A DNA stretch of 64,000 bases, taken from NCBI RefSeq assembly GCF_963921235.1, contig NC_086097.1, positions 131,690,001 through 131,754,000 of the forward strand. The letters are read 5' to 3'. This DNA comes from Mobula hypostoma (Eukaryota). The notes below the pieces were generated by a model, which did not search any database, had not been told where the DNA came from, and saw only the letters and a list, made by a program, of their open reading frames with translations. The position numbers and the translations under genes were made by a program. Below, piece after piece: positions 1-64,000 of this stretch (its first letter is position 1; each line of letters begins with the position of its first letter).

Positions 1-2305
1 GTGACATTGTGACATCACTGAGTTGTTGCTGAAAGAAATCATAGATGACAGCTCAACATCCAAGGATACATACTGTGTCAAAAGGCTGACAGAGAGGGAG
101 AAGTGGTGGGTGGCTCTGCTGGCAAAAGAATAAAATAAAATCCTTCGAAAGAAGTGATGAAGGATCAGAAGATGTAGAATCCTTATGTGTAGAATTAAGA
201 AACTGCAAGGGTAAAAAGACTTTGATAGATGTTATATACAAGCCTCCAAACAGCAACCAGGAAGTGGGATGCAAATTACAATGGGAGATAGAAAAAGCAT
301 GTAAAAATGGCAATGTTCTGAAAGTCATTGGGGATTTCAATACGCAGCTAAACTGGGAAAATCAGGTTGGTGCTCGTTCCTAAGAGCGGGAATTTGTAGA
401 ATGCCAGTGAGATGTATTTTCAGAGCACCTTCTGGTTGAGCCTACCAGGGGAAAGGCAATTCTGGATTGGGTGTTGTGTAATGAATCAGATTTGATTAGC
501 AAGTTTAAGGTAAAGGAACCCTTCAGAGACAGTGATCATAAATTCCTTAGAATTCGCCTTGCAGTTTGAGAGGGAGAAGCTAAAGTCAGTTATAGAAAAG
601 AGAGTGCATATAATACAACAAAAATTAGTGAAAGCTTTTAAAAACCAAGAGAAGGCAAAGAAAGAGTCATAAGGAGAGAAAAGATGCAAAATTAAAGAAA
701 TATGAATAAAACAAAAAAGGATACCAAAAGTTTTTTTCAGACATATAAAGAATAAAAGAGAGAAAGGTGTAGATATTTGTCCTCTGGAAAATGACACCAG
801 AGAGGTATAATGGGGGCCTAAGAAATGACGGGTGAACTTAATAAGTATTTTGTGTCAATCCTCACTGTGAAAGAAACCAACAGCATGCCAGAAATTCGTT
901 CGTGTCAAGGGGTAGAAATGAGTGTAATTGCTACTACTAAGAAGAAGATGCTCAGGAAGCTGAAAAGTCTGATGGTAGATATGTCATCTGGACCAGGTAG
1001 ACTACACCCCAGAGTTCTGAAAGAAGTATCTGATAAGTAGTGATTTTTCAAAAATCGCTAGATTCTGGAATAGTTTTAGAGGACTGGAAAAATGCAAATG
1101 TCACTCTACTCCTAAAGAATGGAGGGAGGCAGAAAAAAGGGAATTATAGGCCAGTTAGCCTGACTTGAGTAATTGGGAAGATGTTTGAATCCATTATTAA
1201 AAGTGAGGTTTTGGAATAAGCCAAAGTCAGTATGGTTTTCTTATGAGGACAACTTGCCTGACAAATCTGTTGGAACTATTTGAGCAAATAACAAGCAGGA
1301 TAGACAAAGGAGAGACAATGGATGTTGTTTACTTGTATTTTCAGGTCTTTGACAAGGTGCCACACATGAGGCTGCTTTACAAGTTAAGAGCTCATGGCAT
1401 TATGGGAAGGATACTAGCATGGATAGAAGATTGACTGACTGGGAGGATGCAAAGAGTGGGAATAAAGGGGATCGTTTCTAGTTTGCTGCTGGTGATTAGT
1501 AGTGTGCTGCAGGGATTGGTGTTGGGACCACTTCTTTTCATGTTATATGTCAATGATTTGGATGATGGAATTGATGGCTTTGTGGCCAAGTTTGAGGACA
1601 ATACGAAGGTAGGTGGAGGGACAGGTAGTGTTGAGGAAGTAGGGAGTATGTAGAAGGACTTGGACAGATTGGAAGGATGGGCAAAGATGTGGCAGATAGA
1701 ATATAGCGTAGGGAAGTGTATGGTTGTGCACTTTGGTAGAAGGAATAAAGATGTTGACTATTTTCTAAACAGGAAGAACATTCAAAAATCAGATGGGCAA
1801 AGAGGCTTGTGAAGAGACTTGTGCAATACTCCCTAAACGTTAACTTGCAGGTTCAGTGAAGGCAAATGCAATAATTTCAAGAGGATTATAAAACAGGAGC
1901 AAGGGTGTAATGCTAAGGTTTTACAAGGCATTGGTCAGAGTACTGTGACTTATCTAAAAAAATATGTGCTAGTGTTAGAGATTGTCCGGAGGAGTTTCAT
2001 GAGAATGATTCTGAGAATGAAAGGGCTAACATATGAAGAGCATTTGATGGCTCTGGGCCTGTACTCATGGGCATTTAGAAGGATGAGGAGGATCTCATTG
2101 AAGTCTATAGAGTATTCAAAGGACTAAATAAAGTGGATGTGGAGAGGATGTTTCCTGTAGTGAATGAGTCTCGGACCAGATGGCTCAACTTCAGAATAGA
2201 AGGATGTCCATTTATAGCAGAAATAAAGACACATTTCTTCAGTAATAGTGAATCTGTGGAATTCGTTGCTACAGGTGTCTGTGGAGGCCAAGTCATTCAG
2301 TATAT
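1..2305 (+). mobile_element. CR1-clade LINE, decayed ORF2 (APE endonuclease end plus RT), 5' segment; interrupted by a Penelope insertion
   Basis: Frameshifted motifs: GDFN (~330), SSGPGRLHPRVLKE, NYRPVSLT, CLTNLLELFE, FDKVPH, VLQGLVLGPLLF, KFEDNTK (decayed FADD). Many stops. Confidence 0.93.
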
Positions 2306-3522
2306 CCCCTTCTCGCAATTCCTCCGTCTTCGCCGCATCTGCTCTCAGGATGAGGCTTTTCATTCCAGGACGAGGGAGATGTCTTCCTTTTTTAAAGAAA
2401 GGGGCTTCCCTTCCTCTACCATCAACTCTGCTCTCAAACGCATCTCACCCATTTCACGCACATCTGCTCTCACTCCATCCTCCCGCCACCCCACTAGGAA
2501 TAGGGTTCCCCTGGTCCTCACCTACCACCCCACCAGCCTCCGGGTCCAACATATTATTCTCCATAACTTCCGCCACCTCCAACGGGATCCCACCACCAAG
2601 CACATCTTTCCTTCCCCCTCTCTCTCTGCTTTCCGCAGGGATCGCTTCCTACGCGACTCCCTTGTCCATTCGTCCCCCCCATCCCTCCCCACTGATCTCC
2701 CTCCTGGCACTTATCCTTGTAAGCGGAACAAGTGCTACACATGCCCTTACACTTCCTCCCTTACCACCATTCAGGGCCCCAGACAGTCCTTCCAGGTGAG
2801 GCTACACTTCACCTGTGAGTCGGCTGGGGTGATATACTGCGTCCGGTGCTCCCGATGTGGCCTTCTATATATTGGCGAGACCCGACGCAGACTGGGAGAC
2901 TGCTTTGCTGAACACCTACGTTCTGTCCGCCAGAGAAAGCAGGATCTCCCAGTGGCCACACATTTTAATTCCACATCCCATTCCCATTGTGACATGTCTA
3001 TCCACGGCCTCCTCTACTGTAAAGATGAAGCCACATTCAGGTTGGAGGAACAACACCTTATATTCCTTCTGGGTAGCCTTCTACCTGATGGCATGAACAT
3101 TGACTTCTCTAACTTCCACTAATGCCCCACCTCCCCCTCGTACCCAATCCGTTATTTATTTATAAACACACATTCTTTCTCTCTCTCTCCTTTTTCTCCC
3201 TCTGTCCCTCTGACTATACCCCTTGCCCATCCTCTGGGTTCCCCCCCCCACCCCCCCTTGTCTTTCTCCCCGTACCTCCTGTCCCATGATACTCTCATAT
3301 CCTCTTTGCCAATCACCTGTCCAGCTCTTGGCTCCATCCCTCCTCCTCCTGTCTTCTCCTATCATTTTGGATCTCCCCCTCCCCCTCCCACTTTCAAATC
3401 TCTTACTAACTCTTCCTTCAGTTAGTCCTGACGAAGGGTCTCGGCCTGAAACGTCGACTGTACCTCTTCCTAGAGATGCTGCCTGGCCTGCTGCGTTCAC
3501 CAGCAACTTTGATGTGTGTTGC
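2306..3522 (+). mobile_element. Penelope-like element (Neptune-like), 5'-truncated young copy 1
   Basis: Open frame IPFSQFLRLRRICS...YPCKRNKCYTC...VIYCVRCSRCGLLYIGET...HFN...GMN (RT thumb, Cys linker, GIY-YIG), stop at 3120-3122. Flanked by 8-bp TSD CAGTATAT (2298-2305 and 3523-3530). Confidence 0.95.
3424..3459 (+). ncRNA. Minimal type I hammerhead ribozyme motif in the Penelope 3' repeat
   Basis: AGTC CTGACGA A GGGT-CTCG-GCCT GAAA CGTC GACT: both catalytic boxes, stem I AGTC/GACT, stem II, palindromic ACGT at stem III. Predicted cleavage after C3455. Confidence 0.85.
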
Positions 3523-3691
3523 CAGTATATTTATAGCTGAGGTTGATAAATCCTTGATTGGACAGGGCACCAAAGGTTACAGGGAAAAAGCAGTAGAATG
3601 GGATTGACAGGAAAAATAAATCAGCCACGATGGAATGGTAGATCAGACTTGATGGGGTGAATAGCCTAATTGTCCTTTGCTCTTATGGTCT
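3523..3691 (+). mobile_element. CR1 LINE 3' end, continuation of 1-2305
   Basis: Joins the upstream CR1 across the TSD (GCCAAGTCATTCAGTATATTTATAGCTGAGG); ends in a CTTATGGTC tail like the CR1 at 51590-52016. Confidence 0.85.
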
Positions 3692-4748: not shown

Positions 4749-6139
4749 TAAGTACAAGGGACTGCATGGCTCAAATATTCTTGACCCCTCCTGATATATC
4801 CACTGATTTTCATTTCAGCTAGAAGCATCCAATTAGGCCAAAATGAGGATCAAACTCAAATTACTTGAATCTATCATCACTGGGTACATATAAAACTTGC
4901 CAATGGTTAATCCCTGAGAATACTGGCCCGAGAATCACATGGGGAATCTGCTGTTTTCAGGTAGCCCAACAATTACGATCTTTGCCTGCTAGTTTTGCGA
5001 CAGGAGTCAGAACTGATGCTCTATTCATGCAGTGAAATAAATTCCAGAACAAAATACTTCTAAAATGATTGTAGTTTAAGTCTTTGATTCTTTTGTGAGG
5101 AAACAAAAGCTCTTGATGGATTAATATGACCCACTTAGTATTTGAATCCAATGGCAATTGGAGCTGTTACTGTTGAACAAGTGAATCAAAAAGAAAATTG
5201 AATCTTATCAGGGTGTACCATGGTAGAAAAGATTGAGGCATTGAAATGGTATATGGTGAAAGAAAAGGACAGCGGAGACTTGAGAACAACACAACCACTT
5301 GAAATGTTTAAGGTTCTCTTCCTATACTTTTCAGACTTTCAATCACTAACTCCAGTTCTCAGAGTCATATAACCTAGAAATGGGCCCTCAGTCAACTAAG
5401 TCCATATCAACTACCAAGTACTTTACACTAAACTTACTCTAATGCCAGTCTATTTTCTTCACACTTGCTTTGGGTCTGACTATTTGGTCAAGTTTTTTGG
5501 TAAAAGCTCCTGCAATAGCTTGGTTTTACTATTCTGTAATAACTCTTGTGAAGAACCTTGGGGTAATTTATTTATCAAAGGCTTCAAACAGATGCAAGTT
5601 ATTGTTAAAGGGGTATAAATTGCCTCAGTTATCCAACACAACCAAGGGCTTGACAGCAGTGACAGGAGTGAGGTGTAATATCTGAAACAGAACCTTTATC
5701 TTTGTTGTTCACTCTGATGAGTGGTGGTTCAATCAAGAACCTCTATGTGTCTCTCTGGTGTAATTTTAATGGCCAAAACGGCAGCCTTAATTTTAACCAC
5801 ATTTGGAAGCTTACACAATGATCATTCAGTGCTGAAGATTACAAAGGATTCAACTATTACTTAATTGTGGCCACGTGGACTCTTATCATAAGTGACCTCT
5901 TTGATCTGGTCCTAAACTGCTAAGACTGTCTCCAAGGCCATCTGTTTCTATTGCTGATGTATACTAACATATGTATGTCACATGTACTGTCAGCTTTTTT
6001 ATTGAACATTTTCCTTTGATCCATTGAATGATGTAATCAGATCAGTAGTATAGCCTCCTTAAAATTCCTACAAAGAATGTTATCTCTCATAAGTGCACAA
6101 GAGATCCTTTGGGACAATTATCCAATTCCAACCAAACCC

Positions 6140-6240
6140 AGTCCAGATGAAGGGTCTCAACCTGAAATACTGACTCTCCATTTTCCTCTGTAGATGCTGC
6201 TTGACCCCTTGAGTTCATACAGTTCTTTGTGTGTCACTGC
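6140..6240 (+). repeat. Short Penelope 3'-repeat derivative with decayed hammerhead
   Basis: AGTC CAGATGA AGGGTCTCAACCT GAAA TACT GACT followed by GATGCTGCTTGACC...GAGTTC. An opposite-strand tail fragment follows at ~6288-6346. Confidence 0.75.
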
Positions 6241-6734
6241 CTCCACCCACTCATTTTAACGTTTAGTCTCCAACATATCCTATTGACAAGCAACACACAC
6301 AAAATGCTGGTGGAACGCAGCAGACCAGGCAGCATCTATAGGAAGATCTAAAGGTTTTGGAATTCCCAAAAAGAGATGTCAAAGTTGCTAGATAAATGAA
6401 TATCTTTTTATTCTTCTCAAGCTATTGGTCACTGTGCTAACAATATGCCCTTGCTATGTTTTCCTCTGCTGTGGAAGATAAATAAAATCTAAACATTTTG
6501 TTCCATTTACAGGAACACCAACTTGCCACTTAACTTTCGCTTCAATCTTTTTCTCGTACCAAGTTTACACCTTGGATATCTTCAAAATATTTTTGCATAG
6601 CGTTGCGATGAATATATTGATATACCTTTGGTACACTTCCTAATTTCCTAATTAAATTGACTTGGTGTCACTAATGGATCAATAGATGTGATTGATTCCT
6701 GATGAACTCTGTGAGGTAACTGTAGCAAACTTGC

Positions 6735-18645: not shown

Positions 18646-19968
18646 ATTTCCTGAAATAGCACTGACTATTGAAGTTCAACTGAATTTTGCAATTCCAATT
18701 ATTTTTTTTTTGTCATTTTATCTAATTTGCCTTCCATCCTATCACAATTCATAAATCCTCCTTTGCCCCATTTCTGCACATTAAAACTAGTTTCTCTTGA
18801 TTTTTTTCCCGCAGTTTTGTTGGACACCAGCTTTGTTGCTCTCTCTGTGCTGACTTGCTGAGTGTTCTCATTTCAATTTTCTAGTATCTACAATGTTTTT
18901 CTTTTGGATTTCTTCTGATTTCTTTTCCCCCTGGAGTTTGGTATGCTCACAGTTTAGTATTGGATCATGCTTAGGGATCAAAAGGACAAAGTCAGAAAAA
19001 CTGTGGAAAAATGATTTGCTTCCTCCTTTCAGTGCTGTTCTGTATCTGTTAGAAACAAGGATATGATAAGTAAGGATGGGGACTTTAGTGTGCATGTATG
19101 TAGTAATATATTGCTGAGAGCAGATGAAAGAATGGAATTATAATTATGGTTTTATGATCTTGCAATATTTCAATGCCAGCAATCTGACAATACAGAGTCA
19201 GTGCAAAGATGATAAGGGTATATAAGTTGAAGAACAACAGGAAAGCTCCCTGATCTTCTTTAAATCTTTTACATCAACCGAATAGATTCTCTTCTCTCTT
19301 GACCATTTCTCTGACTGCTATGCTCCCACATTTTGACAATATATATCAGATAATTGAGGTTAAAGATCATGACAACATGGTCAGTGGTTGAACTGCTTTC
19401 ACTTATGCAGAATTTCAGATCAATTAGACTGATTAAATTTTGCTGTGATTGGAGTCTTATTGTTGTTTTATGCCATCACTTATAATTGCCTCTCGAAAAG
19501 GCTTACAATTGCCTGACTGCAATCCTCAGACTTTTGCATGTTTATACTGAAACGTGATAGCCTTCCTATAGCTGTTCTGTGCCTGAGTTACAAGGATCCT
19601 GTCTGTAGAGAATCTGATTGATATTTCAGGAGGTGCAATCTTCTCTTGTCTCCTTTCTCAGATGGATGTGGATGAACGGATGGAGATACAACCAGTCCGG
19701 GTGGCCTAGACAGGAAATGTTGACCATTCATTTCCCTCCATAGCTTGCTTCCTGGCCCTTTAAGTTCCTCAAGTGTTTCGTGTATCAGTGGATGAGTACT
19801 TGCTTGGGAGAACATGGAAGAAAGTTCTCTCTGGTATCCTGTTCAATATTTATGCCTCAATTAACAATACCAAAAGCTAATAATCTGGTTGAACTTTTAT
19901 AGCAGAAAGAAGGTCATTCAATCTATTATGTTGTACTGCTCTCTGCAAGACAACTTCTTAAGCAGCAA

Positions 19969-21936
19969 ACAACAGGAATTCTGCAGATGCTGGAAATTCA
20001 AGCAACACACATCAAAGTTGCTGGTGAACGCAGCAGACCAGGCAGCATCTCCAGGAAGAGGTACAGTCGACGTTTCAGGCCGAGACCCTTCATCAGGACT
20101 AACTGAAGGAAGAGTGAGTAAGGGATTTGAAAGCTGGAGGGGGAGGGGGAGATGCAAAATGATAGGGGAAGACAGGAGGGGGAGGGATAGAGCCAAGAGC
20201 TGGACAGGTGATAGGCAAAAGGGGATACGAGAGGATCATGGGACAGGAGGTTTGGGAAGAAAGACAAGGGGGGGGGTGACCCAGAGGATGGGCAAGAGGT
20301 ATATTCAGAGGGACAGGGGGAGAAAAAGGAGAGTGAGAGAAAGAATGTGTGCATAAAAATGAGTAACAGATGGGGTACGAGGGGGAGGTGGGGCCTTAGC
20401 GGAAGTTAGAGAAGTCAATGTTCATGCCATCAGGTTGGAGGCTACCCAGACGGAATATAAGGTGTTGTTCCTCCAACCTGAGTGTGGTTTCATCTTTACA
20501 GTAGAGGAGGCTGTGGATAGACATGTCAGAATGGGAATGGGATGTGGAATTAAAATGTTTGGCCACTGGGAGATCCTGCTTTCTCTGGCGGACAGAGCGT
20601 AGATGTTCAGCAAAGTGGTCTCCCAGTCTGCGTCAGGTCTCACCAATATGTAAAAGGCCACATCGGGAGCACCGGACGCAGTATATCACCCCAGTCGACT
20701 CACAGGTGAAGTGATGCCTCACCTGGAAGGACTGTTTGGGGCCCTGAATGGTGGTAAGGGAGGAAGTGTAAGGGCATGTGTAGCACTTGTTCTGCTTACA
20801 CGGATAAGTGCCAGGAGGGAGATCAGTGGGGAGGGATGGGGGGGACGAATGGACAAGGGAGTTGTGTAGGGAGCGATCCCTGCGGAATGCAGGGGGGGGG
20901 GAGGGAAAGATGTGCTTAGTGGTGGGATCCCGTTGGAGGTGGCGGAAGTTACGGAGAATAATATGTTGGACCCGGAGGCTGGTAGGGTGGTAGGCGAGGA
21001 CCAGGGGAACCCTATTCCTAGTGGGGTGGTGGGAGGATGGAGTGAGAGCAGATGTACGTGAAATGGGGGAGATGCGTTTAAGAGCAGAGTTGATAGTGGA
21101 GGAAGGGAAGCCCATTTCTTTAAAAAATGAAGACATCTCCCTCGTCCTAGAATGAAAAGCCTCATCCTGAGAGCAGATGCGGCGGAGACGGAGGAATTGC
21201 GAGAAGGGGATGGCATTTTTGCAAGAGACAGGGTGAGAAGAGGAATAGTCCAGATAGCTGTGAGAGTCAGTAGGCTTATAGTAGACATCAGTGGATAAGC
21301 TGTCTCCAGAGACAGAGACAGAAAGATCTAGAAAGGGGAGGGAGGTGTCGGAAATGGACCAGGTAAACTTGAGGGCAGGGTGAAAGTTGGAGGCAAAGTT
21401 AATAAAGTCAACGAGTTCTGCATGCGTGCAGGAAGTAGCGCCAATGCAGTCGTCGATGTAGCGAAGGAAAAGTGGGGGACAGATACCAGAATAGGCACGG
21501 AACATAGATTGTTCCACAAACCCAACAAAAAGGCAGGCATAGCTAGGACCCATACGGGTGCCCATAGCTACACCTTTAGTTTGGAGGAAATGGGAGGAGC
21601 AAAAGGAGAAATTATTAAGAGTAAGGACTAATTCCGCTAGACGGAGCAGAGTGGTGGTAGAGGGGAGCTGATTAGGTCTGGGATCCAAAAAGAAGCGTAG
21701 AGCTTTGAGACCTTCCTGATGGGGGATGGAAGTATATAAGGACTGGACATCCATGGTGAAAATAAAGCGGTGGGGGCCAGGGAACTTAAAATCATCAAAA
21801 AGTTTAAGAGCGTGAGAAGTGTCACGAACATAGGTCGGAAGGGATTGAACAAGGGGTGATAAAACAGTGTCGAGGTATGCAGAAACGAGTTCGGTGGGGC
21901 AGGAGCAAGCTGAGACAATAGGTCGGCCAGGACAGG
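19969..21936 (-). mobile_element. Penelope-like element (Neptune-like), 5'-truncated young copy 2
   Basis: RT motifs MDVQSLYTSI, GVAMGTRMGPSYA, LRYIDD, FLDL, YYKPT, then linker and GIY-YIG with one CGA>TGA stop (20633-20635). 14-bp TSD TTCTTAAGCAGCAA at 19955-19968 and 21937-21950. Confidence 0.96.
20065..20100 (-). ncRNA. Minimal type I hammerhead ribozyme motif in the Penelope 3' repeat
   Basis: Reverse complement AGTC CTGATGA AGGGTCTCGGCCT GAAA CGTC GACT; differs from 3424-3459 only at the variable N7 position. Confidence 0.85.
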
Positions 21937-23869
21937 TTCTTAAGCAGCAACCTATTCTTCTTTAGGTATCCACCCAGTACCTATTTGACAGCAGCTATGA
22001 AATCTGCTTCAACCATTGTTTCAGGAAATACCTTTCAAATCATGAAACTCAATGAGTGGAAAGGTTTTCCTCAGGACCCCTTTTTTTTATTTTGTTGACT
22101 TATTTCCTCTGGGTCATTCCACCAATTGCAAAAGTTCTCTCTTTTATTTTGTGGTTATTTTACACTAGTCTATTTTGTCATCTCTCAACATTCCCTGCTA
22201 GTTCTGTTGAACAGGGAGAGCAACAGCAACGCCATTCCAAATGGTAATTGGTTTATTATTGTCTTATGTACCAAGATAGAGTGAAGAACATTGTTTTGCA
22301 TACCATCCAGACAGATTTGTCCATATTAAGTACATTGAGGTGCAACAATTCCAGTGAACTGCCCGTAGTTGTTCCAGGAAACTTCACATCCATCCAATGC
22401 CCAGAATTAAATACAAGAGTCAGTAGTGTACTAGATATGCAACATACCCTCCTCCATATTTAATGACCTTCTCAATGTAACCATTTAGCCTTTTAGAGCT
22501 TTGTGTAGATATAGGCCCTTCTCCCTCTCCTCCTGCATCTGAGGTAGTGCATTGGGCCAAACCACACTAATCCCAGCACAACTGCACCCTCCTGCCTCGT
22601 GTTAGTCTGGCAGCTGCACAATACTTTTACAGCCATGAGGTACCTTATGCACTGCTGGTGTTACTGCTTCAGCCCTTCTGTGTGATACAGTGGATCGGTG
22701 AATGACAACTAGGCTGCAATTGTCACAAAATAAGGAAACACCCTTATTCTGATGACCTCTAATCATTTGTTCACTCACTGTTTCTACACGCCTCCAATCA
22801 CTTGTTAAAATATGTCAATTTCTCATCCATTCCAAGTAGCGTCTGTTTGGACATCCCTGGGCTGGGTTAAATTTCATCTGCCTCTTGAACAGATTATTCA
22901 TATCCTCCAGAAGTCTGTTGCTAATGGGGTTTTACCACACTTCTTCAGATTTTGCACCATCTGAAAGTGTTTAAAGGTTAAGTCCAAGACGAGATCATTA
23001 ATTTAGATGTCAAGGAAAGAAGTGTTTCTGATACAGATATCTAGGGAACATGACTGCATAATGTCTTCGGTGATGAAAAGTATTAGTTTGAAGGATGCAT
23101 CTCATTTCTTGTTCTGAATCTGAGGTCTGGTGTATCCCATAATGCCTCGAGTTAAATGGCAGACACACTTCAAACTTGGCCTTGAAGCTTCCACCAGGCA
23201 TAGTAATTGCATCAGGCATGGCCCCTGTCATTGGAATAGGGTTGCTAACATACATTTGGAACAAAAACTTAGCTAATATATTTACTTTTATTTCAATGTA
23301 AATACTAAATCAGCTTACTATTGTCACATATACCAAGATACATGTAAAACTTCTGGTTGCCACACATACAGATCATTTCATTACAATTGTGCCTTGAGGT
23401 ACTACAAAGGAAAGCAACAGAATGCAGAATAAAGTGTTACAGTTACAGAAAAGGACAGTACAGGCAGATAATAATGTGCAGGGTCACAGCGAGGTAGATT
23501 TTGAGGTCTACAGTCTACTTTACTGTACAAGGCATCTGTGCGATAGTCTTATAAGAGAAGCTGTCCTTGAGCTCGATGGTAATGTTTTCATGCTTTTTTC
23601 AAAATCTTCTGCCTGATAGGGGGAACCAAAACAAAGAATATCCAGGGTGAGTGGGGCCTTTCATTGTGTTTTACCAATGCAGGTACATGTATATTGTTGA
23701 TTAATTAGCAGCAATTATACATGTTTTCATATTGCTTCATGTGCTGAAGTCATACCCGTCCTTGTTCCCTTTATTCCGTGGGCTTCACTCTGGATGGGAA
23801 GCTTACTGTGTGGCAGGTTGTCAAGTGCCATTTGAAAACCCACATACACAACATTGGCCATATTGTCAC

Positions 23870-25577: not shown

Positions 25578-26650
25578 GAGATGTCCTCCTTCTTCATATA
25601 ATGGGGATTACCTTCCTCCACCATTGATGCTATCCTCCACCCGCATCTCCATTTCTGGGACATCTGTGCTTACCCCATCTTCCCGCAGCCGTAACAGGGA
25701 TAGAGTTCCTCTTGCCTTTAACACACTTGAGCCTCCACATCCAGCACATCGTTCTCCGCAACTTCTGCCATCTTCAATGGAACACAACCACCAAACACAT
25801 CTTTACCCACCAGGGATCGCTCCCTCTGTGATTCCCTTGTCCATCTGTAGCTCCCTGCTAATCGCTTTCCTGGCACTGAACCCTGCAAGCGGAAGAAGTG
25901 CGACATCCGGCTATTCACCTCCCCCCTCACCATTCAGGGTCTGAAACAGTCTTTCCAGATGAGGCAACACTTCATCTGAGAATCTGTTGGGGTCATCAAC
26001 TAACTCAGTGCAACCAATGTGGCTGCCTCTACATTGGTGAGACCTGACATAGATTGGGAGACCACTTTGACAAGCACTATTGTTCCATCTGCAAAAAGCA
26101 GGATTTCCTGGTGGCAAACCATTTTCATTCCAATTCCTATTCCTGTCCCAACATGTTGGTCCATAGCCTCCTCTTCTGCCATAATGAGGCCACTCTCAGG
26201 TTGGAGGACCAATACCTCAGATTCTGTCTCGGTAGCCTCCAACCTGATGGCATGAACATTGATTTCTCCAATTCTCAGCATTTTCTACCTTCCTCTTCCC
26301 TCTTCTCCAATTCCCCACTCTGCTCCCCCACCTGCCTATCACCTTCCCCGGTGCCCCTCCTCCTTCCCTTTCTCCTATCGTCCACTCTCCTTTCCTATCA
26401 GTTTCTTCTTCTCTGGCCCATCCTATCACCTATCACTTCCCAGCTTTTTACTTCATCCACCTTCCCCACCCTTGGGGCTTCACCAATCACCTTCTAGCTT
26501 GTACTGCTTCGCATTCCCCTGCCTATTTCTGGAATCTTGCCCCTTCTTTTCCAGTCCTGATGAATGGTCTTGGCCTGAAACATTGACTGTTTGTTCATTT
26601 CCATTGGTGCTGCCCAGCTTGATGATTTGCCCCAGCATTTTGTGTGTGTA
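25578..26650 (+). mobile_element. Older Penelope-like element 3' portion
   Basis: Frameshifted homolog of 2380-3520 (LVANHFHSNS...LRLEDQYLRFCLGSLQPDGMNIDFS). Hammerhead AGTC CTGATGA ATGGTCTTGGCCT GAAA CATT GACT at 26553-26588. Confidence 0.9.
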
Positions 26651-27430
26651 GTCTATCGGTGTAGGTGTTTTTTTCTTAATTGTACCTGTGCAAATTTGAT
26701 AATGCAGAACCTTAGCTGTTCGGAGTTTTTTTTTGCTGATCCTCCCTACAGAGAGATTATGCTTTCATTTGGCTTTATTCACAACTGCCATTCTCCTTCC
26801 AAGCAATAAATATTGAACAAAAATATTTGATTTTATTATTGAACTCACCCTCAATTTCACTATCACCACCCCACCAGTCTTGTCCCCCCAACAAGCACTA
26901 TGATGCCCTACCTTGAACTGGAAAATCTGCATTCTTCATAAACAGAGATTCACTCAATCAGTGTATGACATGGGTCAACACCCGTGCACCAACACATGCT
27001 GTTCAATGGGCCCCAGTCTGAAGAAACCTCCAATATCTTATACCTACAAACCAACTGCTTCTTTACCAGCATTACCTTTATAATGTAGGTACATCATTGT
27101 CTATAAAGTGCCCAGGTAATATTCTGCAAGGGATCTAAGGCTGCTGCCATAGAAATGTAAAGATCCACGTGAGAGATATTTTGAGGGAGGTTGGGACAAA
27201 GTCTCCTCAGATTCTGCAGTTACCAACCTGCTTTCTTTCTCCATAGGCACTGCCAGACTTGCTGAGTGTTTCCAGATTTTATTTCAGATTTTCAGTATCT
27301 GTAGTTTTTAAAAATTTTTATTCTTGCATCTTCTATTTATCCAAAATCTATCAATGACAAGGTTCTCCAGATATATAGTGCCTTTAATATAGCAAATCCT
27401 CAACAAAGCAAAGATTTGATATTCAACTAT

Positions 27431-27891: not shown

Positions 27892-28209
27892 TAGCCAGTC
27901 CTGCACAGGATGGCACCTCCCAGTCTTCACTCAGTTAACAGGAGTTGCCTGCCACTCATTTCCAATTTATCACCTGCAGCCTTTTTAAACCAAACTCTCA
28001 TTCACATTCCTTTGTTCAGGCATTGAACCTGCCAGACTCAACCAGTTGCTCCTAGCCTTCAGTTGCCTTGTTGTGTAAGCATCTGTTCCCTTTTATTTTG
28101 TGGCCTCTTTAAGCTTGTTATTTTGCAGCTTATTAGTAAAACATCATTTACTGCTAAATAGTCTCAGTTGCTCAGCTTTTGGATCATGCCTCCTCTACAT
28201 TTTCTGATA
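27892..28209 (+). repeat. 5' LTR of the Gypsy element
   Basis: Colinear with 33885-34188 (CCTCCCAGTC, TGCCACTCATTTCCAA, GCTTGTTATTTTGCAG, TTACTGCTAAAT, GCCTCCTCT); ends in TGATA (decayed TGACA). Confidence 0.85.
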
Positions 28210-31088
28210 GGATGCGTGAGCTAACGATTGAACCAGCAGAGCTGGCTTGCTTAAAGGATGTTGTCCATCGATGTTGAGCACACGATCCCAACTCAATAGG
28301 AAACTATTGACTATCCGCTCACCACTCTCAACCAACTCTCCATCCCAATAGAGCAACCTTGCATCGGTCAACCTCCACCCTTGGAGCCCCAGACTCTGGT
28401 GTCTGAACGCTTTGATGGATCCCCAATCTGCTGCTGCAATCTTCTGTCCCAGTTGCATCTTGCACTTAGAACTGCAGCCATCTCTGTATTCCACAGACCC
28501 AGCCTTCACCAGCTCTCTTCTGACTGCATGTGCTCTGAATTGGGCCACTGCTAACTGGGACAATAAAACAACCACTTGCAATAAATATGAGAAATTCACC
28601 ACTGAGCTGCGCCGGGTTTTCGACCATCGGGAAGTGGAAGGAGGCAGCGGATCAGCTACTTTGCCTGCATCAAGGCTGTCATTTGGTGCTGTATTACACA
28701 GTGGACTTCAGGACCCTCATGGTGCACTGCGGCTGGAATGCAGAAACATTGCTGGTCCACTACTATCACGGATTCTTGGATTGCTTGAAACAGTTCACAT
28801 AGAAGATGCTCACTGACTTCGAAAGCCTCATCACCCTGGCCCCCTGAATTGACAAGCATTTTATGGAACAACCCTCCAGGTCGTCAGTCAGATCGCCAGT
28901 TCTGTTCCCAGAATCACTTCTGGCTGCAGGACCCTTGTCATCAACAGCTCCAGAATCCAAGCAGTTAGGGAGTGTGCCTTTAACTTCCCAAGAGTGTGAG
29001 CATTGGTGAGGAAACTACGTGTGTGCCTACTGCAGATCTGCAGATCACTCATGCGTCAAATGCCCATTGCTCCTGGAAACCAGCATCACCCGACAGATAC
29101 AAGGAGGCCTCTATCTGATAAGCTCCCCCAGGCCTCTCACTCTAGCATCGTATTCCATCTCATTCTCTCTTTCCTCCTCCTCACCCCAGCAGCTCTGGTG
29201 GATTCTGGTGCAATAGGCAACTTTCTAGACCGGACCCTGTGTATGTAGCTTGGATTCCCCACGGAGCCTACCCTTCTGCATCAACTCACCCAACGCTCCG
29301 CTCATCTTGGTTTACTCCTGGCTCTCCACTTACGAACCTCACTTCTCCTGGTCATCTGGGTCACTGCTAAGCTGGGGAACCATGTGATGGACCAGCTGCC
29401 TGTGACCTCAGCTGAATTCACCCTGCAAATCTATGGAGATGGAGGAAACTCGCGACCTAACCAAACTCCCACAGGAATACCACAACTTAGCAATTGCCTT
29501 CAAATAAAGGGAAGTCAGCACCCTGCTGTCTCACGGACCACAAGACTGCACGCTCGACTTCCTCCCTAGCAGCACTCCTCCCGCAGGTCAACCTTTCGCC
29601 CTCTGCCCTCCTGAGACCCAAATTGTAAATGATCACATCGCTGAAGTTCTACAGCAGGACTTCATTTGACCATATCAGTCTCCAGCCAGAGCAGGATTTT
29701 TCTTTGTCAAAATGAAAGATGTGGGTCTCTGTCCCTGCTCCGACTGCTGTGGACTCAATAAAATTAACATTAAGAACTGCTACCCCCTCCTCTTGATGGA
29801 CAGTATATTTGAAATATTCCACAGGGCTGAGATCTTCATCAAATCTGGATCTACAGAGTGGGTACAACCTGATCCACATCTGCTAGGGAAATGAGTGGAA
29901 GAAAGCATTCATAATACCCAATGGCCACAATGTATACTTGGTGATGTCTTTTGAACTTTTTCATAGTCCAGCCATTTTCCAAGCCTTCAGCAATGAGACC
30001 CTCCAAGATATGCTACACAGGTATGTGCTCTTCTACCTTGATGTCATCCACTTTTTCTCCAAGGACCCGCAAGACATATCTGCCACGTCCATTTAGTCCT
30101 TCAGCACTTCCTCCAAAACGAATGGGTTAGAAAAATGCCAGTTCCACACTCCAGTCATTTGTTCTTTGGTTACGTCCTTTCACCCCAAGGCCATGGACCC
30201 AGAGAAAGTACACAGCACTGCTGAATGGCCCTGACTGCGCTCCTTAAGCAGCTACAACCCTTCTTGGGCTTCTCTAACTTCTCCTGCCATTTCATCAGAA
30301 ACTGCAGCCAATCCACTGCCAATTATTACCTCCCTCACCAAGTCACCTACTTCATGGATAACCTGGTCTGTAGCCGCGGACCATGCTTTCGAGGAGCCCA
30401 GGAGACGCTTCACTACCACTCACATTCTCTGCCATCCAAATCCCTCCAGACCTTTTGTGGTAGAAGTGGATGCATCTGACTTGAGAGCCAGGGCCATCCA
30501 CTCTCAGTGAGGAGCAGCTGGGAAGATGCACCACTTTGCCTTCTTTTTACTGAAGTTCAACCCTATACAGTGCCATTATGGAGTAGGAGACAGGGAGCTA
30601 CTCACCATTAAGTTGCCCTTGGAGGAATGGAGACATTGGCTGATGGGAAACACTGAGCCCTTCCTGATCTGGACTGACCACCAGAACCTCCCATCCATGT
30701 AACAGACCCACCAACTCAACCTTCTTCAGGCTCACTGAGTCCTCTTCTTTGAGCGATTCAACTTCGCAATCACCTTCCAAGCTGTTTCCAAGAACGCCCT
30801 GTCACAACATTTTACCCAGCTGAAATAGAGATTGATCCTCTGTCCGTCATTCCATCCTTGCAGATCCTTGCCCTGCTCATCTGGGATCTTGTGAATCAGA
30901 TCCACTGGGCCTCACAGCATGTGCCTGCTCTACTAACACACCTGACAACTACATGTCCATGCCGGCAGCTGTGTGCTTTGAGGCACTCCAGTGGGCCCAC
31001 TCCTCACCCTTCTCCAGCCATTCAGACTCATGATGGACTCTGGATTTTCTTTGATGCCAATTCTGATGGCTCGCCATGTTTGCAGATG

Positions 31089-32762
31089 CATAGAACTTAG
31101 AACATAGAATAGTACAGCACAGTACAGGCCGTTCGGCCCACAATGTTGTGCCGACCCTCAAACCCTGCCTCCCATATAAGCCCCCACCTTAGATTCCTCC
31201 ATATACCTGTCTAGTAGTCTCTTAAATTTCACTAATGTATCTGCCTCCACCACTGACTCAGGCAGTGCATTCCACGCACCAACCACTCTCTAAGTAAAAA
31301 ACCTTCCTCTAATATCCCCCTTGAACTTCCCACTCCTTACCTTAAAGCCATGTCCTCTTGTGGTGCCCTGGTGCCCTGGGGAAGAGGCGCTGGCTATCCA
31401 CTCTATCTATTCCTCTTATTATCTTGTACACCTCTATCATGTCTCCTCTTATCCTCCTTCTCTCCAAAGAGTAAAGCCCCAGCTCCCTTAATCTCTGATC
31501 ATAATGCATACTTTCTAAACCAGGCAGCATCCTGGTAAATCTCCTCTGTACCCTTTCCAATGCTTCCACATCCTTCCTATAGTGAGGTGACCAGAACTGG
31601 ACACAGTACTCTAAGTGTGGCCTAACCAGAGTTTTATAGAGCTGCATCATTACCTCGCGACTCTTAAACTCTGTCCCTCGACTTATGAAAGCTAACACCC
31701 CATAAGCTTTCTTAACTACCCTATCTACCTGTGAGGCAACTTTCAGGGATATGTGGACATGTACCCTCAGATCCCTCTGCTCCTCCACACTATCAAGTAT
31801 CCTGCCATTTACTTTATACTCTGCCTTGGAGTTTGTCCTTCCAAAGTGTACCACCTCACACTTCTCCGGGTTGAACTCCATCTGCCACTTCTCGCCCACT
31901 TCTGCATCCTATCAATGTCTCTCTGTAATCTTTGACAATCCTCTACACTATCTACAACACCACCAACCTTTGTGTCGTCTGCAAACTTGCCAACCCACCC
32001 TTCTACCCCCACATCCAGGTCGTTAATAAAAATCACGAAAAGTAGAGGTCCCAGAACAGATCCTTGTGGGACACCACTAGTCACAATCCTCCAATCTGAA
32101 TGTACTCCCTCCACTACGACCCTCTGCCTTCTGCAGGCAAGCCAATTCTGAATCCACCTGGCCAAACTTCCCTGGATCCCATGCCTTCTAACTTTCTGAA
32201 TAAGCCTACCGTGTGGAACCTTGTCAAATGCCTTACTAAAATCCATGTAGATCACATCCACTGCACTACCCTCATCTATATGCCTGGTCACCTCCTCAAA
32301 GAACTCTATCAGGCTTGTTAGACACGATCTGCCCTTCACAAAGCCATGCTGACTGTCACTGATCAGACCATGATTCTCTAAATGCCTATAGATCCTATCT
32401 CTAAGAATCTTTTCCAACAGCTTTCCCACCACAGATGTAAGGCTCACTGGTCTATAATTACCCGGACTATCCCTACTACCTTTTTTGAACCTGGGAACAA
32501 CATTCGCCTCTCTCCAATCCTCCAGTACCATTCCCGTGGACAATGAGGACATGAAGATCCTAGCCAGAGGCTCAGCAATCTCTTCTCTCGCCTCGTGGAG
32601 CAGCCTGGGGAATATTCCGTCAGGCCCCGGGGACTTATCTGTCCTAATGTATTTTAACAACTCCAACACCTCCTCTCCCTTAATATCAGCATGCTCCAAA
32701 ACATCAACCTCACTCATATTGTCCTCACCATCATCAAGTTCCCTCTCATTGGTGAATACCAA
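31089..32762 (-). mobile_element. Young CR1 LINE, 5'-truncated, inserted into the Gypsy integrase
   Basis: RT ORF KSPGPDG, NYRPVSLTS, DFSKAFDKVPH, GVPQGSVLGPLLF, FADDTK. 1-bp frameshift near 31893 relative to the 52260 copy; CATAGAA tail at 31089. Confidence 0.96.
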
Positions 32763-33884: not shown

Positions 33885-34188
33885 TGTCAAGCTTACACAG
33901 GGAACCTCCTCCCAGTCTCCACTCATCACATGCCACTCATTTCCAACTCATCACCTTCGGCCTGTAAAAACCCAGCTCTCATCCAGTCCTTTGTTCACCC
34001 ACCAAACCAGCCAGCCTCAACCTTGCCTTCAGTTACCTTGTTACCTTGTCATGTTAAGTAACTGTTCCCTCTTGCTTTGTGGCCCCGCGTGGCTTGTTAT
34101 TTTGCAGTTTACTAGTAAAATATCGGTTACTGCTAAATCATCTCCATTCCTCTGCTTTTGTGCAAAGCCTCCTCTCCATTTCCTGACA
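33885..34188 (+). repeat. 3' LTR of the Gypsy element
   Basis: TGTCA...TGACA termini immediately after the polypurine tract. Confidence 0.9.
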
Positions 34189-38790: not shown

Positions 38791-38859
38791 CTGGCGATAT
38801 TCGATATATACTGCATCTTAGAAGCATTTTTTTAGATTCTGGGCATCGTTGGCAAGGAG

Positions 38860-39200
38860 ACACAAAGGGCTGCAGATGCTAGAATCTGGAGCAATGAACA
38901 AGATGTGAGAAGGACTCAATGGGATGAGCAGCATCTGTGGAGGGAAATGGACAGTCAACATTTCAAGTCAAAAGCCTTCATCTGGACTGAAAGAGCAGGG
39001 AGGATACTTTAAATCAGGAAGGAGGAGGGGTGGAGCAAGAGCAGGCAAGCAACAGGTGATTAAGTGAGGATGAGTTGATTGGTTGAAGGAGGAGGAATGG
39101 ATGGAAATAGCAGGAGAGACTGGGAGGTGATAGGTGGTAACAAAAGGGCTGCAGATAATGGGAACTGATAGAAAAGAACGTGGGGCCTGGGGTTAAATAA
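38860..39200 (-). repeat. Penelope 3'-repeat derivative with decayed hammerhead
   Basis: Reverse complement of 38953-38988 = AGTC CAGATGA AGGCTTTTGACTT GAAA TGTT GACT. Confidence 0.75.
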
Positions 39201-43497: not shown

Positions 43498-43649
43498 ATT
43501 CATAAAGTCCAATGTACTTAAATACTTTTTATTCCTTTGAATACTAGTTTGCTCTCTCTCACCCCATTTTTGATTATTCTTTTTGTTCTAATTGTTCTTT
43601 CTTATCCATCTTATGTGCTTTTGATGCCACTCAGTACAATAGTGTGGAA

Positions 43650-56869: not shown

Positions 56870-57080
56870 ACACAGAATGTACTGCAGATGCTGGAAATCT
56901 AGAGTGATACGCACGATGTGCTGGAGGTGTCAGCAGGTCAGACAGCATCTACGGATGGGAATAATGAATCCCGGTGAAGGTCTCGGGCTGAAACATCAAC
57001 TGTTTATTCCCATCCATTGATGCTGACTGACCAGCTGAGCTCCTGCAGCACACTGTGTGTATCACTGTAATACCAGCACT
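56870..57080. repeat. Fold-back Penelope 3'-repeat element with a decayed hammerhead in the loop
   Basis: Arms 56889-56964 and 57004-57078 are inverted repeats; the spacer has CCGGTGA AGGTCTCGGGCT GAAA CATC AACT. Confidence 0.8.
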
Positions 57081-57954
57081 GATGAAATGGAGGTACCAAA
57101 CAATCTCCAGTGATTCAAATGTAATGTCAGAATTTGTAAAGAACTCCATCCTGTCCATCTTCCTCTATTGTTAAAAAGCTGTTGGCTTCTAACATACATA
57201 GATGGTTATTCATTATTTGCAAGTATACAGCTAGAGTTTCCAACACTATATTCTTCTTTACAACAAATCATATACCATGGGACAATATGGTTAAGAATGA
57301 CTTGTAGGCGTTTCTTGTCACTTTGTAGTGAGTCCTGTTTTCTTTCACTCTGAGTCAGCATTTGATATCCTTCATCCTTCCAGTGTTTAATTTGACATTT
57401 CTGGCATTTCTGTTTGTCCTGTTGTAGAGTTATCAAGTCATATAGCATGGAAACTGGGTATTAACCATCAGTTGCATTAACAGTAAAGAGACAGTGGACA
57501 ACTGTGAGTTGTTTTCTCTGGGGCATCAACGTCTGAGGGGCTGGCTATTTGGTAGGCATTTATAAAATTATGAGAGTCATAGGAAGGGTAGATAGAGTCC
57601 TTTTCCCTGGATGGAAATGTCAAATAACAGGGAGCGTTACTTTAAGGTGCAAGGTGGAAAGTTTTAGATTTATGAAGCAGGTGTTTCACAGACAGCAGTG
57701 GATGCCTAGAATGAGGTGCTAGAGGAGGTGGCAGTTGCAGATACAATAGCAATATTTAAGAAGCATTTGGACAGATGCATGAATAGGCAGAGAATGGAGA
57801 GATGATGGCATGTTGACAATCAAGAACCCGTTTAGCATTTTAATCTCATATTAATCCCATTTTATTTTCTCCACATTCCCATTAACTCTCCCCATATTCT
57901 ACCTCAAACCTACACTCTGAAGGGAATCTACAGCAGCCAATTATCCTTCTATCT

Positions 57955-61067: not shown

Positions 61068-61120
<53 letters not shown>

Positions 61121-61695: not shown

Positions 61696-61729
<34 letters not shown>

Positions 61730-61745: not shown

Positions 61746-63230
61746 TATAGAGTCCTGAATTAATATTCATAGATGTGAGAAATTCAGTTTGGGAGGAATG
61801 TTCAGGGAAGGACTTGTCTGGATTTCACCCTGTGGGCTATAAATGAACCAATGCAACACACAAGGTATAGTCAGATGTTAAGACAATTCAACTGCTGACT
61901 GTGTCTGAGTTTGTCTCAAAATTGAGGCTACTGAAAGCAATAAAAGAATACTTACAGGAGCCCTGAAAGTTTCAAATGTTATTGAGCTAAAGTCATTGTG
62001 ATAGAGTTTTTCAGCACAAAAACCAACACTTCAGCCCAACTCATCCATGCTGACAAATTTGCCCATTTAAACTACACCCACATGCTTCTATTTGGGCCAT
62101 GTGCCTCTAAACCTGTGAGGAGTCATGAACAGGAGCTAGGACACAGGTCTCAGTTTCTGAGTTTCCTCCACTCTGCCCTGATCCTTTTAATTTATTTCTG
62201 AGGCCAAACATCTTTGAACAATTTTTAAATATCTTGATGATTTGAGGCTTTAAAAAAACTGCTTAGGTAGGTTCAAAAAATAAAAAAAATAAGGACACCT
62301 TACAGAACTAGATGTGAATTTAAAAAGATTATGACAAACTGCAATAATGTAAGCAAACCAGCTATAGTTTTTTGTTTTTTTAAATTGGTTGACAGTTCCA
62401 TTCAAATGAATAAGGTTGATGTAGTTATTGGGGAAGGGATTTACTTTACCTTAGCATTCAGTTCATCATAGACATGATGGATTGAAGGACCTGCTCCCGT
62501 GTTGTACTGCTCCAAGTAGTACGTCAGCCGAATCCTATGCAAAGTTGAGGAGGTAGATATGATTTAATTCACCTCTTCTTCTTGGTACATGTGTGCTTTG
62601 CTGTGGAGCTTGACCATGAGCCTAAGTCCCACAGCATCAGGTTCAAGAACAACTGCTTTCCTTCAACCATCCAATTCTTGAACTAACCAGCATAACCCTA
62701 ATCATTAGAGTTTAGAAACACTATCACCACTTTGATCACTTTGCACTAAAATGGACATTTTTGTTTTGAAATTCTCACTGTGATCTTTTTAAAAAATGTG
62801 TATAATTTACGTTTTTTCTTATGAATGCTGCTTTTATGATACTATCTGCCTGTGATGCCGTTGTAACTTACTTTTATTCCACTTTTGTATATGTGCCATT
62901 TTGCATGTGATGATAAACTTGACTTTGACTTTGACTTTGAGTCTGGTGGCAGAACAGGTTGGGGCGATTAGTTGTTCCAATACCTCATCTCCAGATTGTT
63001 TTAGACTTCTGCATCTTGACAGGCAGGGAAGTCCAAGGCAAGGTGACCCATGAAGAGGGTATAAGCAGCAGTTCTCCACAAAGCCGTGACCAAAAGTAAG
63101 CCCATTATCTTATCTGCTGTGCTCTGAAAAAGTCTGTCATGGCATAACCACACAAGCCAATGATCAAATCAAATGTCTGCCCACTGAGTTGGTGAATTCT
63201 TTTTAAGAAAAGACAGGAAAACAAGACACT

Positions 63231-64000
63231 CAACCGTCTCGACTTTACCGCACCTTGTCCCCATTCCAAACTCACTCCTTCGGAACGCTCTGCTCTCCAC
63301 TCCCTCCGCACTAATCCTAACATTATTATTAAACCCGCTGATAAAGGGGGTGCTGTTGTAGTCTGGCGTACTGACCTCTACCTTGCCGAGGCACAGCGAC
63401 AACTCGCGGATACCTCCTCTTATTTACCCCTCGATCGTGACCCCACTAAGGAGCACCAGGCCATTGTCTCCCACACTATCAACGACTTTATCCGCTCAGG
63501 GGATCTCCCTTCCACTGCTACCAACCTTATAGTTCCCACACCCCGCACTTCCCGTTTCTACCTCCTACCCAAGATCCACAAACCTGCCTGTCCTGGCCGA
63601 CCTATTGTCTCAGCTTGCTCCTGCCCCACCGAACTCGTTTCTGCATACCTCGACACTGTTTTATCACCCCTTGTTCAATCCCTTCCGACCTATGTTCGTG
63701 ACACTTCTCACACTCTTAAACTTTTCGATGATTTTAAGTTCCCTGGCCCCCACCGCTTTATTTTCACCATGGATGTCCAGTCCTTATATACTTCCATCCC
63801 CTATCAGGAAGGTCTCAAAGCTCTACGCTTCTTTTTGGATTCCAGACCTAATCAGTTCCCCTCTACCACCACTCTGCTCCGTCTAGCAGAATTAGTCCTT
63901 ACTCTTAATAATTTCTCCTTTTGCTCCTCCCATTTCCTCCAAACTAAAGGTGTAGCTATGGGCACCCGTATGGGTCCTAGCTATGCCTGCCTTTTTGTTG
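63231..64000 (+). mobile_element. Penelope-like element young copy 3, 5'-truncated, running off the window end
   Basis: Stop-free frame from 63232: NRLDF...IIKPADKGGAVVV...FYLLPKIHK..PGRPIVS...MDVQSLYTSIP...GVAMGTRMGPSYA. Near-identical to the reverse complement of 21520-21936. Confidence 0.95.

What the first reader, a model, noticed from the sequence alone, without database searches (positions are those of the whole stretch)
3424..3459. Intact minimal hammerhead ribozyme in the 3' repeat of a young Penelope family
Seen: CTGACGA and GAAA boxes, stem I AGTC/GACT, a short stem II, a GTC cleavage triplet and a palindromic ACGT instead of a stable stem III. The copy at 20065-20100 differs only at the position where hammerheads tolerate any base. 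Established: Penelope-like elements carry minimal type I hammerheads, proposed to cleave as dimers. Inference: this family is recently active and its RNA is processed by self-cleavage. The ORF track shows only a spurious peptide (SPDEGSRPETST) here.
Basis: partly seen in the sequence, partly recalled or inferred. Interest (0 to 1): 0.75.

Follow-up and report, generated by a model that had tools for sequence, protein, structure and literature searches.

The report
Minimal hammerhead in Neptune retroelement end
This is a real but ordinary example of the tiny self-cutting RNA motif that Penelope-type jumping genes carry near their 3' end, here in a truncated copy from a very abundant family in a shark- or ray-like genome, and the inserted copies run straight through the cut site, so cutting does not make their end.

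Summary
Observation confirmed. 3424-3459 is a minimal type I hammerhead (stem I, CUGACGA, bulged A, 4-bp stem II, GAAA, palindromic ACGU, GUC), and the copy at 20065-20100 differs only at N7. It lies 300 nt behind the stop codon of a 5'-truncated, target-site-flanked Penelope-like element of Neptune type (CX4CX2C linker, GIY-YIG). Related coral elements carry the same core with compensated stems, identical to a published motif. Rfam misses both motifs, so 'no CM hit' does not refute it.

The monomer is predicted to fold into an inactive rod. Cleavage was not tested. The family is only relatively young (copies 1.7% and 6.3% apart, one with a stop codon), with 16 older relic hits in the window.

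Verdict: new member of a known kind (Cervera 2014; Frangieh 2024). A splice-acceptor-like signal overlapping stem I is the only lead beyond that, and it is weak.

The parts
3423..3460 (+). Minimal type I hammerhead, copy A: stem I 3423-3427/3456-3460; core CTGACGA 3428-3434; bulged A 3435; stem II 3436-3439/3444-3447 (G.U, G-C, G-C, U.G); GAAA 3448-3451; palindrome ACGT 3451-3454; predicted cleavage after C3455
2306..3522 (+). Element A: 5'-truncated Neptune-type Penelope-like element with the short 3' end (67 nt past C17), inserted into a decayed LINE (CR1/L2-type; label recalled)
2307..3122 (+). Open C-terminal part of the element's ORF: RT thumb region, CX4CX2C linker, GIY-YIG endonuclease with CxxC between the two motifs
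   Evidence: (GIY-YIG 14.4 bits, below cut-off; relatives P0023 and P0040 pass)
3123..3422 (+). Pyrimidine-rich 3' non-coding region (70-100% C+T in every 20-nt window), the most variable part of the element
3404..3425 (+). Splice-acceptor-like signal (TACTAAC 3404-3410, pyrimidine tract, CAG 3419-3421, TAG 3423-3425) running into the 5' arm of stem I; use not shown
   Evidence: hints for and against
2298..2305 (.). 8-bp target-site duplication of element A, left copy (CAGTATAT)
3523..3530 (.). 8-bp target-site duplication of element A, right copy
19969..21936 (-). Element B: 5'-truncated copy with RT core (Pfam RVT_1, 28.4 bits, just under cut-off), a premature stop in the endonuclease and the long 3' end (100 nt past C17); 14-bp target-site duplication at 19955-19968 and 21937-21950
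20064..20101 (-). Minimal hammerhead, copy B (N7 = U)
19969..20001 (-). 33-nt optional 'tail', present in B and absent from A; holds the 3' arm (CAGCATCT) of a predicted stem with AGATGCTG
63200..64000 (+). Element C: third, 5'-truncated copy running off the window, 1.7% from B over 415 nt; its 5' boundary is approximate and its 3' end is not in the window
38858..39023 (-). Decayed relic of an older hammerhead-plus-tail unit, long 3' end (example of 16 relic hits)
26518..26668 (+). Decayed hammerhead at the 3' end of an older copy of the same element type (25578-26271 is about 70% identical to A)
56870..57095 (.). Inverted (head-to-head) pair of decayed hammerhead/tail units, the arrangement typical of PLE insertions; similar pairs at 45881-46085 and 59468-59640

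Best explanation
It is the minimal hammerhead in the 3' terminal repeat (pLTR) of a 5'-truncated Neptune-type Penelope-like retroelement of an elasmobranch-like genome. SHOWN: anatomy, position behind the ORF, target-site duplications, conservation of core and compensated stems in distant relatives, and read-through of the cleavage site by both insertions, which end at one of two sites 33 nt apart. INFERRED (by analogy with the Anolis Poseidon element and from folding): the element's protein binds the structured RNA just 3' of the ribozyme and starts reverse transcription at one of these two internal sites, copying backwards through an uncut hammerhead. As a monomer the motif sits in an inactive rod (GACG paired with CGUC). 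It cleaves only occasionally, when a second copy in a tandem pLTR-ORF-pLTR transcript supplies helix III through the ACGU palindrome and/or the element's protein chaperones the fold. Cleavage is thus a conditional step in handling multimeric source transcripts, not the step that makes the 3' end. Copy A itself is most likely a passive insert: no second intact motif lies on its strand in the window.
For: Motif and odds. ORF features. Target-site duplications and the two 3' ends. Public contigs also start near both ends, 19966-19974 and 20000-20002 (table 8), and two Mobula gene models lose similarity at about the short end. 13 of 20 related loci with an endonuclease end and at least 250 nt of flank have a core or near-core motif 97-321 nt downstream, against 5% of random windows. 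Stems: 86.7% of cells paired, 5 of 9 pairs with two-sided change, slid controls at most 43% paired. Summed depth peaks over hammerhead and tail (9-15 million) against 2-7 million in the 3' non-coding region, and loose ends pile up at 20063 and 20100, the borders of stem I. Monomer MFE is the inactive rod, -11.6 against -7.6 kcal/mol for the open core. Frangieh 2024 (PMC11167929): internal RT starts that define the tail, cleavage only with protein, uncleaved RNA the dominant substrate.
Against: No cleavage or expression data. The covariation rests on about three independent lineages, and L075 was picked by a pairing descriptor. Within the window's own 11 copies covariation does not exceed shuffles (440 of 500 reach the score). 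The hammerhead alone is not significantly more conserved than the 3' region between A and B (1/36 against 29/294, p = 0.23; with the downstream 63 nt 3/99, p = 0.03). The active double hammerhead (-12.7) is far less stable than the best co-fold (-31.5) in a nearest-neighbour model. The Anolis element is Poseidon, not Neptune, and its start codon in the core is not general here (N7 is C in 70% of depth in X1). No full-length or tandem source copy could be seen.
Confidence: 0.7

Rival explanations
1. Cleave-and-circularise (Cervera 2014): both hammerheads of a tandem transcript cleave as a dimer, the unit is ligated to a circle, which restores a complete motif at the junction, and reverse transcription from an internal start reads across the ligated junction.
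For: Fits the read-through of the cleavage site just as well. Palindromic ACGT is kept in this family and in coral relatives. Dimers and trimers of a Schistosoma minimal motif cleave weakly in vitro (PMC4209133).
Against: In the Anolis element ribozyme mutants insert normally, and no RNA-seq reads begin or end at the cleavage site (PMC11167929). No tandem copy in this window. The active dimer is disfavoured in the folding model.
Confidence: 0.15
2. The motif in this subfamily is catalytically crippled and is kept as part of a structural or protein-binding signal (with the downstream stem), or merely hitch-hikes at the 3' end, which every insertion includes.
For: G10.1.U11.1 in both copies and in 70% of depth in X1, against G-C in the published consensus. 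Inactive monomer fold. Naiad PLEs thrive without canonical hammerheads (PMC8557442 passages).
Against: All core nucleotides are the same as in coral relatives whose ORFs are only about 40-60% identical. G.U at this pair occurs in several published PLE motifs, among them the Schistosoma, cichlid and Xenopus rows of Fig. S3. No core position is among the 40 variable rows shown of 108.
Confidence: 0.08
3. Splice-gated ribozyme: an intron of the pLTR ends at CAG 3421 or TAG 3425, so splicing replaces the 5' arm of stem I or its context and switches cleavage, as suggested for Drosophila virilis Penelope.
For: TACTAAC, pyrimidine tract and two AGs directly before the core; only 3 AGs in the 303 nt upstream in A. 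Consensus of loose ends from other subfamilies reads pyrimidines + CAG before TCC in all 4 runs. One Mobula gene model gains similarity exactly at the first acceptor (P0121). 67 loose ends at 20098 in run X9, whose RNA status is a guess.
Against: The whole 3' region is pyrimidine-rich, and the AG is explained by stem I pairing. Coral relatives have no AG there. The second Mobula model, P0123, includes two codons upstream of the acceptor. No GT..AG joint among the joints listed (15 shown of 192). No donor identified.
Confidence: 0.06
4. Chance match to the hammerhead consensus.
For: No Rfam hit; folding z-scores near zero.
Against: Shuffle odds; fixed position behind the endonuclease in relatives; Rfam also misses the published coral motif.
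Confidence: 0.01

Closest known systems
Minimal hammerheads (min-HHR) in the PLTRs of metazoan PLEs (Cervera and De la Pena 2014, PMC4209133); closest row Acropora digitifera, listed as Neptune
   Same: Type I, CUGANGA + one bulged base, short stem II, GAAA, palindromic 15-16 positions, NUH, short stem I, single 3' motif in 5'-truncated copies. The coral loci related to this ORF carry the A. digitifera motif letter for letter.
   Different: G10.1.U11.1 in the majority subfamily; stem I of 4-5 bp against 3 in coral; no shark or ray among the 56 rows of Fig. S3 or in Table S1.
Poseidon element of Anolis carolinensis, PAc (Frangieh et al. 2024, PMC11167929)
   Same: Hammerhead at the pLTR end; two 3' ends separated by a 30-40-nt tail (here 33 nt); insertions keep the uncut motif.
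   Different: This element has the CX2-5CxxC linker (Neptune type). The ATG in the core that starts the PAc ORF is ACG in A and in 70% of X1 depth, and in B that frame closes after 31 codons.
Neptune clade of endonuclease-bearing PLEs (as defined in passages of Craig et al. 2021, PMC8557442)
   Same: RT followed by CX2-5CxxC linker and C-terminal GIY-YIG with CxxC between the motifs; 5' truncation; inverted short copies; tail; variable target-site duplication.
   Different: Nematis shares a (reduced) linker and was not excluded by a tree; no microsatellite target for A or B.
Non-LTR retrozymes (Li, Clavereau and Pollet 2026 preprint, 10.64898/2026.07.22.740005)
   Same: Type I hammerhead derived from PLE pLTRs; reported in one chondrichthyan genome.
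   Different: Retrozymes are non-coding tandem repeats; these copies are single and attached to the ORF or are solo relics.

Membership tests
PLE minimal type I hammerhead | Core boxes CUGANGA and GAAA with NUH triplet, ends joined in stem I | tested here: met
PLE minimal type I hammerhead | No stable helix III; palindromic 15-16 positions | tested here: met
   ACGT 3451-3454
PLE minimal type I hammerhead | One unpaired base between positions 9 and 10.1 | tested here: met
   A3435; RNAfold gives the 4-bp stem II after it
PLE minimal type I hammerhead | G10.1-C11.1 pair (consensus above 80%, with published G.U exceptions) | tested here: inconclusive
   G.U in A and B; C in 30% of depth in X1, 35% in X5, 26% in X9, 57% in X19; G.U rows in Fig. 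S3. A paired position, not the consensus pair.
PLE minimal type I hammerhead | Location in the pLTR behind an RT-EN ORF | tested here: met
PLE minimal type I hammerhead | Stems kept by compensatory change across relatives | tested here: met
   (about three lineages); not met within the window's decayed relics alone
PLE minimal type I hammerhead | Self-cleavage as dimer or with protein | not testable with these tools
   needs a bench assay; folding energies do not favour the active dimer
Rfam hammerhead families | Covariance-model hit | tested here: not met
   no hammerhead hit at E up to 10; the published coral motif is missed too, so it is not filed under an Rfam family
Neptune-type PLE | RT plus C-terminal GIY-YIG endonuclease in one ORF | tested here: met
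Neptune-type PLE | CX2-5CxxC linker between RT and endonuclease (absent in Penelope/Poseidon) | tested here: met
   CKRNKCYTC in A; C138, C143, C146 invariant in 10 of 10 aligned sequences
Neptune-type PLE | Placement in an RT tree with reference Neptune and Nematis elements | not tested
   no named reference sequences were fetched
Neptune-type PLE | Optional 30-40-nt tail and target-site duplication | tested here: met
   33 nt; 8 and 14 bp
Neptune-type PLE | Partial-tandem source copy with a 5' pLTR | not testable with these tools
   no genome held; all three copies in the window are 5'-truncated
Non-LTR retrozyme | Non-coding tandem units each with a hammerhead | tested here: not met
   no tandem units among the repeats of the window

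The most novel reading that the evidence does not exclude
In elasmobranch Neptune elements a spliceosomal 3' splice site is built into the 5' arm of hammerhead stem I, so splicing gates self-cleavage; and because the motif is present in a very large number of genomic copies, sense-oriented intronic copies act as cryptic exons that place a conditional ribozyme into host pre-mRNAs (two Mobula gene models contain the motif as coding sequence).
Probability: 0.1. Interest if true: 0.55.

Novelty: new member of a known kind. Interest (0 to 1): 0.2.

Why it matters
As it stands it extends a known association (PLE pLTR plus minimal hammerhead) to a highly abundant elasmobranch Neptune family and shows in genomic copies the two-end tail signature that was explained in vitro for a Poseidon element. 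The function of PLE hammerheads is still open; a family with very many copies and two natural variants (C or U at 11.1, C or U at 7) would allow a genome-wide test of selection on catalysis, but that needs the whole genome. It would matter more if the splice acceptor in stem I proved to be used.

Tried and rejected
Rfam scans of the whole window and of 3300-3600 at E up to 10: no hammerhead; rejected as a test after the positive control also failed. Folding z-scores of the motif are near zero and say nothing either way for so small a motif. No whole genome is held, so copy number, full-length copies and insertion polymorphism are open. Viral contigs: 7 pattern matches, none confirmed. Sequencing runs: no RNA holder listed on record; all laid runs are contigs, so expression, strand and cleavage ends cannot be read; summed depth is not a copy number. 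Idea that the ORF starts at the ATG in the core as in PAc: rejected for this family (C at N7 in A, in coral loci and in 69-83% of depth in X1, X5, X9; frame closes in B); N-termini of 42 long relatives give no link to the motif. CpG-asymmetry test at C7-G8: could not be completed, since 68 of 108 variant rows were not shown. Covariation within the window's relics, including the tail stems: not above shuffles; the tail stem is only modestly supported by folding (z -1.1 to -2.0 for four stretches; a fifth, z -3.3, folds differently). Poseidon assignment, my first guess: dropped because of the Cys linker. Protein searches with the non-coding frame gave 1 hit of 30 candidates and 6 hits, of which 2 are real (P0121, P0123), P0127 is an unrelated cytochrome, and P0124-P0126 were not inspected. 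Earlier findings of the scan: none by sequence or for shark/Neptune words; 225 hold 'Penelope hammerhead', 8 shown, none on this family.

Full report
1. Observation. The window reads AGTC CTGACGA A GGGT CTCG GCCT GAAA CG T C GACT at 3424-3459, and the reverse complement of 20065-20100 differs at one position, N7. A core pattern matches these 2 sites only, against a mean of 0.01 in 100 shuffles. A descriptor with stems finds the same 2, and none with a palindromic helix III in 100 simulated windows. Read with the bulged base that PLE motifs have between positions 9 and 10.1, stem II is G.U, G-C, G-C, U.G. Its closing pair is a wobble, where the published consensus has G-C.

2. The element. The motif lies 300 nt behind the stop codon (3120-3122) of an ORF remnant. 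Copy A spans 2306-3522 between two copies of an 8-bp target site. Copy B spans 19969-21936 on the minus strand between two copies of a 14-bp site. A third copy, C, runs off the window. All three are 5'-truncated. B gives a Pfam RVT_1 match just under the cut-off. A gives a weak GIY-YIG match (E = 0.047), and its full-length relatives pass the cut-off. The best named protein hits are from Chiloscyllium punctatum (76% and 70%), and two Mobula gene models hold the motif's non-coding frame at 70% and 85%, so the host is elasmobranch-like (inference). The linker CKRNKCYTC is CX4CX2C, invariant in 10 of 10 aligned proteins. Craig et al. 2021 state that this linker is absent from Penelope/Poseidon and present in Neptune, so I call the element Neptune-type; no tree was built.

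3. Age. B and C differ at 7 of 415 sites; A and B at 76 of 1207, with dN/dS 0.41 (p = 0.006 on rounded counts), which points to separate once-active source lineages. B carries a premature stop at a CpG site. CpG observed/expected is 0.47-0.49 in A and B against 0.24 in the window. A profile search finds 18 hits at E below 0.01, A, B and 16 older relics. None of the relics passes the descriptor, and several form inverted pairs. In one public run 184,979 contigs were laid on a 561-nt stretch. The family is thus old, very abundant and has recent branches; activity today is not shown.

4. Is the motif under selection? Across species, yes. Of 80 related loci (the best 80 of 138; mostly coral-like by their motif), 23 include the endonuclease end, 20 of these have at least 250 nt of flank, and 13 of the 20 show a core or one-mismatch core 97-321 nt downstream, against 5% of 3000 random windows. 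Their motif equals the Acropora digitifera row of Fig. S3 in Cervera 2014. On an 11-row alignment 86.7% of stem cells pair and 5 of 9 pairs change on both sides; slid controls reach at most 43%. This amounts to about three lineages, and one row (L075) was chosen by pairing. Within the host, summed depth is 9-15 million over hammerhead and tail and 2-7 million over the 3' non-coding region, rising again at the ORF end, and loose ends pile up at 20063 and 20100, the borders of stem I: other subfamilies keep the motif and differ beside it. Of the 40 variant rows shown (108 in all), four fall in the motif: N7, 11.1 and the CpG at C17-G1.1 (about 10% each in X1). Point counts alone are weak: 1/36 against 29/294 between A and B (p = 0.23), 3/99 with the downstream stretch (p = 0.03), and 3/132 against 20/301 polymorphic places among the rows shown (p = 0.07). 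Covariation among the window's own 11 copies does not exceed shuffles.

5. The Rfam test. No hammerhead family is hit at E up to 10. The published coral motif in L027 is missed as well.

6. How it most likely works. Both insertions pass through the predicted cleavage site: A ends 67 nt and B 100 nt after C17. The 33-nt difference matches the optional 30-40-nt tail of PLEs. Public contigs start near both ends, the two Mobula models lose similarity at about the short end, and coral relatives also show a short and a long end (by eye). Frangieh et al. 2024 traced the tail to two internal start sites of reverse transcription, found cleavage only in the presence of the element's protein, and found uncleaved RNA to be the dominant substrate. 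Here the monomer's best fold pairs GACG with CGUC and hides the core (-11.6 against -7.6 kcal/mol), and the active double hammerhead (-12.7) is far above the best co-fold (-31.5) in a model that ignores tertiary contacts. My reading: the protein starts cDNA synthesis downstream of an uncut ribozyme; cleavage is conditional on a partner copy or on the protein and concerns multimeric source transcripts. A cleaved and religated circle would leave the same genomic trace, so that model stays open (0.15). Copy A has no intact partner on its strand in the window and is probably passive.

7. A side lead. TACTAAC, a pyrimidine tract and CAG/TAG (3404-3425) run into the 5' arm of stem I. Cervera 2014 report that the D. 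virilis Penelope intron ends at helix I. Hints for use: pyrimidines plus CAG in the loose-end consensus of all 4 runs; 67 loose ends at 20098 in X9, whose RNA status is a guess; gene model P0121 gains similarity exactly at the first acceptor; by eye about 26 of the 56 rows of Fig. S3 have a YAG in the 15 nt before the core, many of them related. Against: the whole region is pyrimidine-rich, the AG pairs in stem I, coral relatives lack it, P0123 includes sequence upstream of the acceptor, both models are predictions, and no listed joint is GT..AG (15 of 192 shown). I put this at about 0.1.

8. Comparison with print. Lunse et al. 2017 on dimer cleavage was not held and is known to me only through the review's citation and recall. 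No shark or ray appears in Cervera's Table S1 or Fig. S3. The 2026 preprint reports hammerhead retrozymes in one chondrichthyan; its supplements, and those of Lunse 2017, may list this very motif. Six searches showed no paper devoted to an elasmobranch PLE hammerhead; the library lacks most subscription papers. The labels CR1/L2 and gypsy, and the importance of the G10.1-C11.1 pair for rate, are recalled.

9. Verdict. Real, well placed and conserved, but a new member of a kind described since 2014. Interest 0.2.

Noticed in passing
window 27950-34186: Direct repeats at 27950-28207 and 33931-34186 (78-82% alike) bracket decayed gag/pol-like frames: an old LTR retrotransposon (gypsy-like, label recalled), interrupted by a younger LINE at about 31090-32840.
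   Followed up: no
window 31090-32030 and 52260-53203: Two copies of a LINE 3' end, 95-99% alike, in opposite orientation; a second young retroelement family in the window.
   Followed up: no
window 45881-46085, 56870-57095, 59468-59640, 6108-6385: Short ORF-less units made of two hammerhead/tail pieces in inverted orientation (three head-to-head, one tail-to-tail); MITE-like in look, probably extreme 5' truncations with inversion.
   Followed up: partly
window 19975-20050 (minus): AGATGCTG pairs with CAGCATCT around an inner hairpin; both words persist in old relics. The short 3' end lacks the 3' arm, the long end has it. Candidate binding or RT-start structure; covariation not above shuffles.
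   Followed up: partly
P0121 residues 149-182; P0123 residues 173-208: Two Mobula RefSeq models (an uncharacterised protein; STARD3NL isoform X3) translate the hammerhead and short tail as part of a host protein: exonisation or annotation artefact.
   Followed up: partly
L001:2259-2292, L027:945-978, L028:86-119, L029:38-71, L030:202-235 (minus): Coral-like relatives often have an inverted hammerhead upstream of the ORF, and their short 3' end carries TTTTGTGT, as do several old relics in this window.
   Followed up: partly
window 42531-43499 and 46190-46518; 44895-45476: Decayed copies of another non-LTR family (RVT_1 plus ALKBH8_N/DUF1891 match), two of them 78-89% alike.
   Followed up: no
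window 61048-61850: Long degenerate (CA)n-rich tract; source of the weak mir-297 Rfam matches.
   Followed up: no
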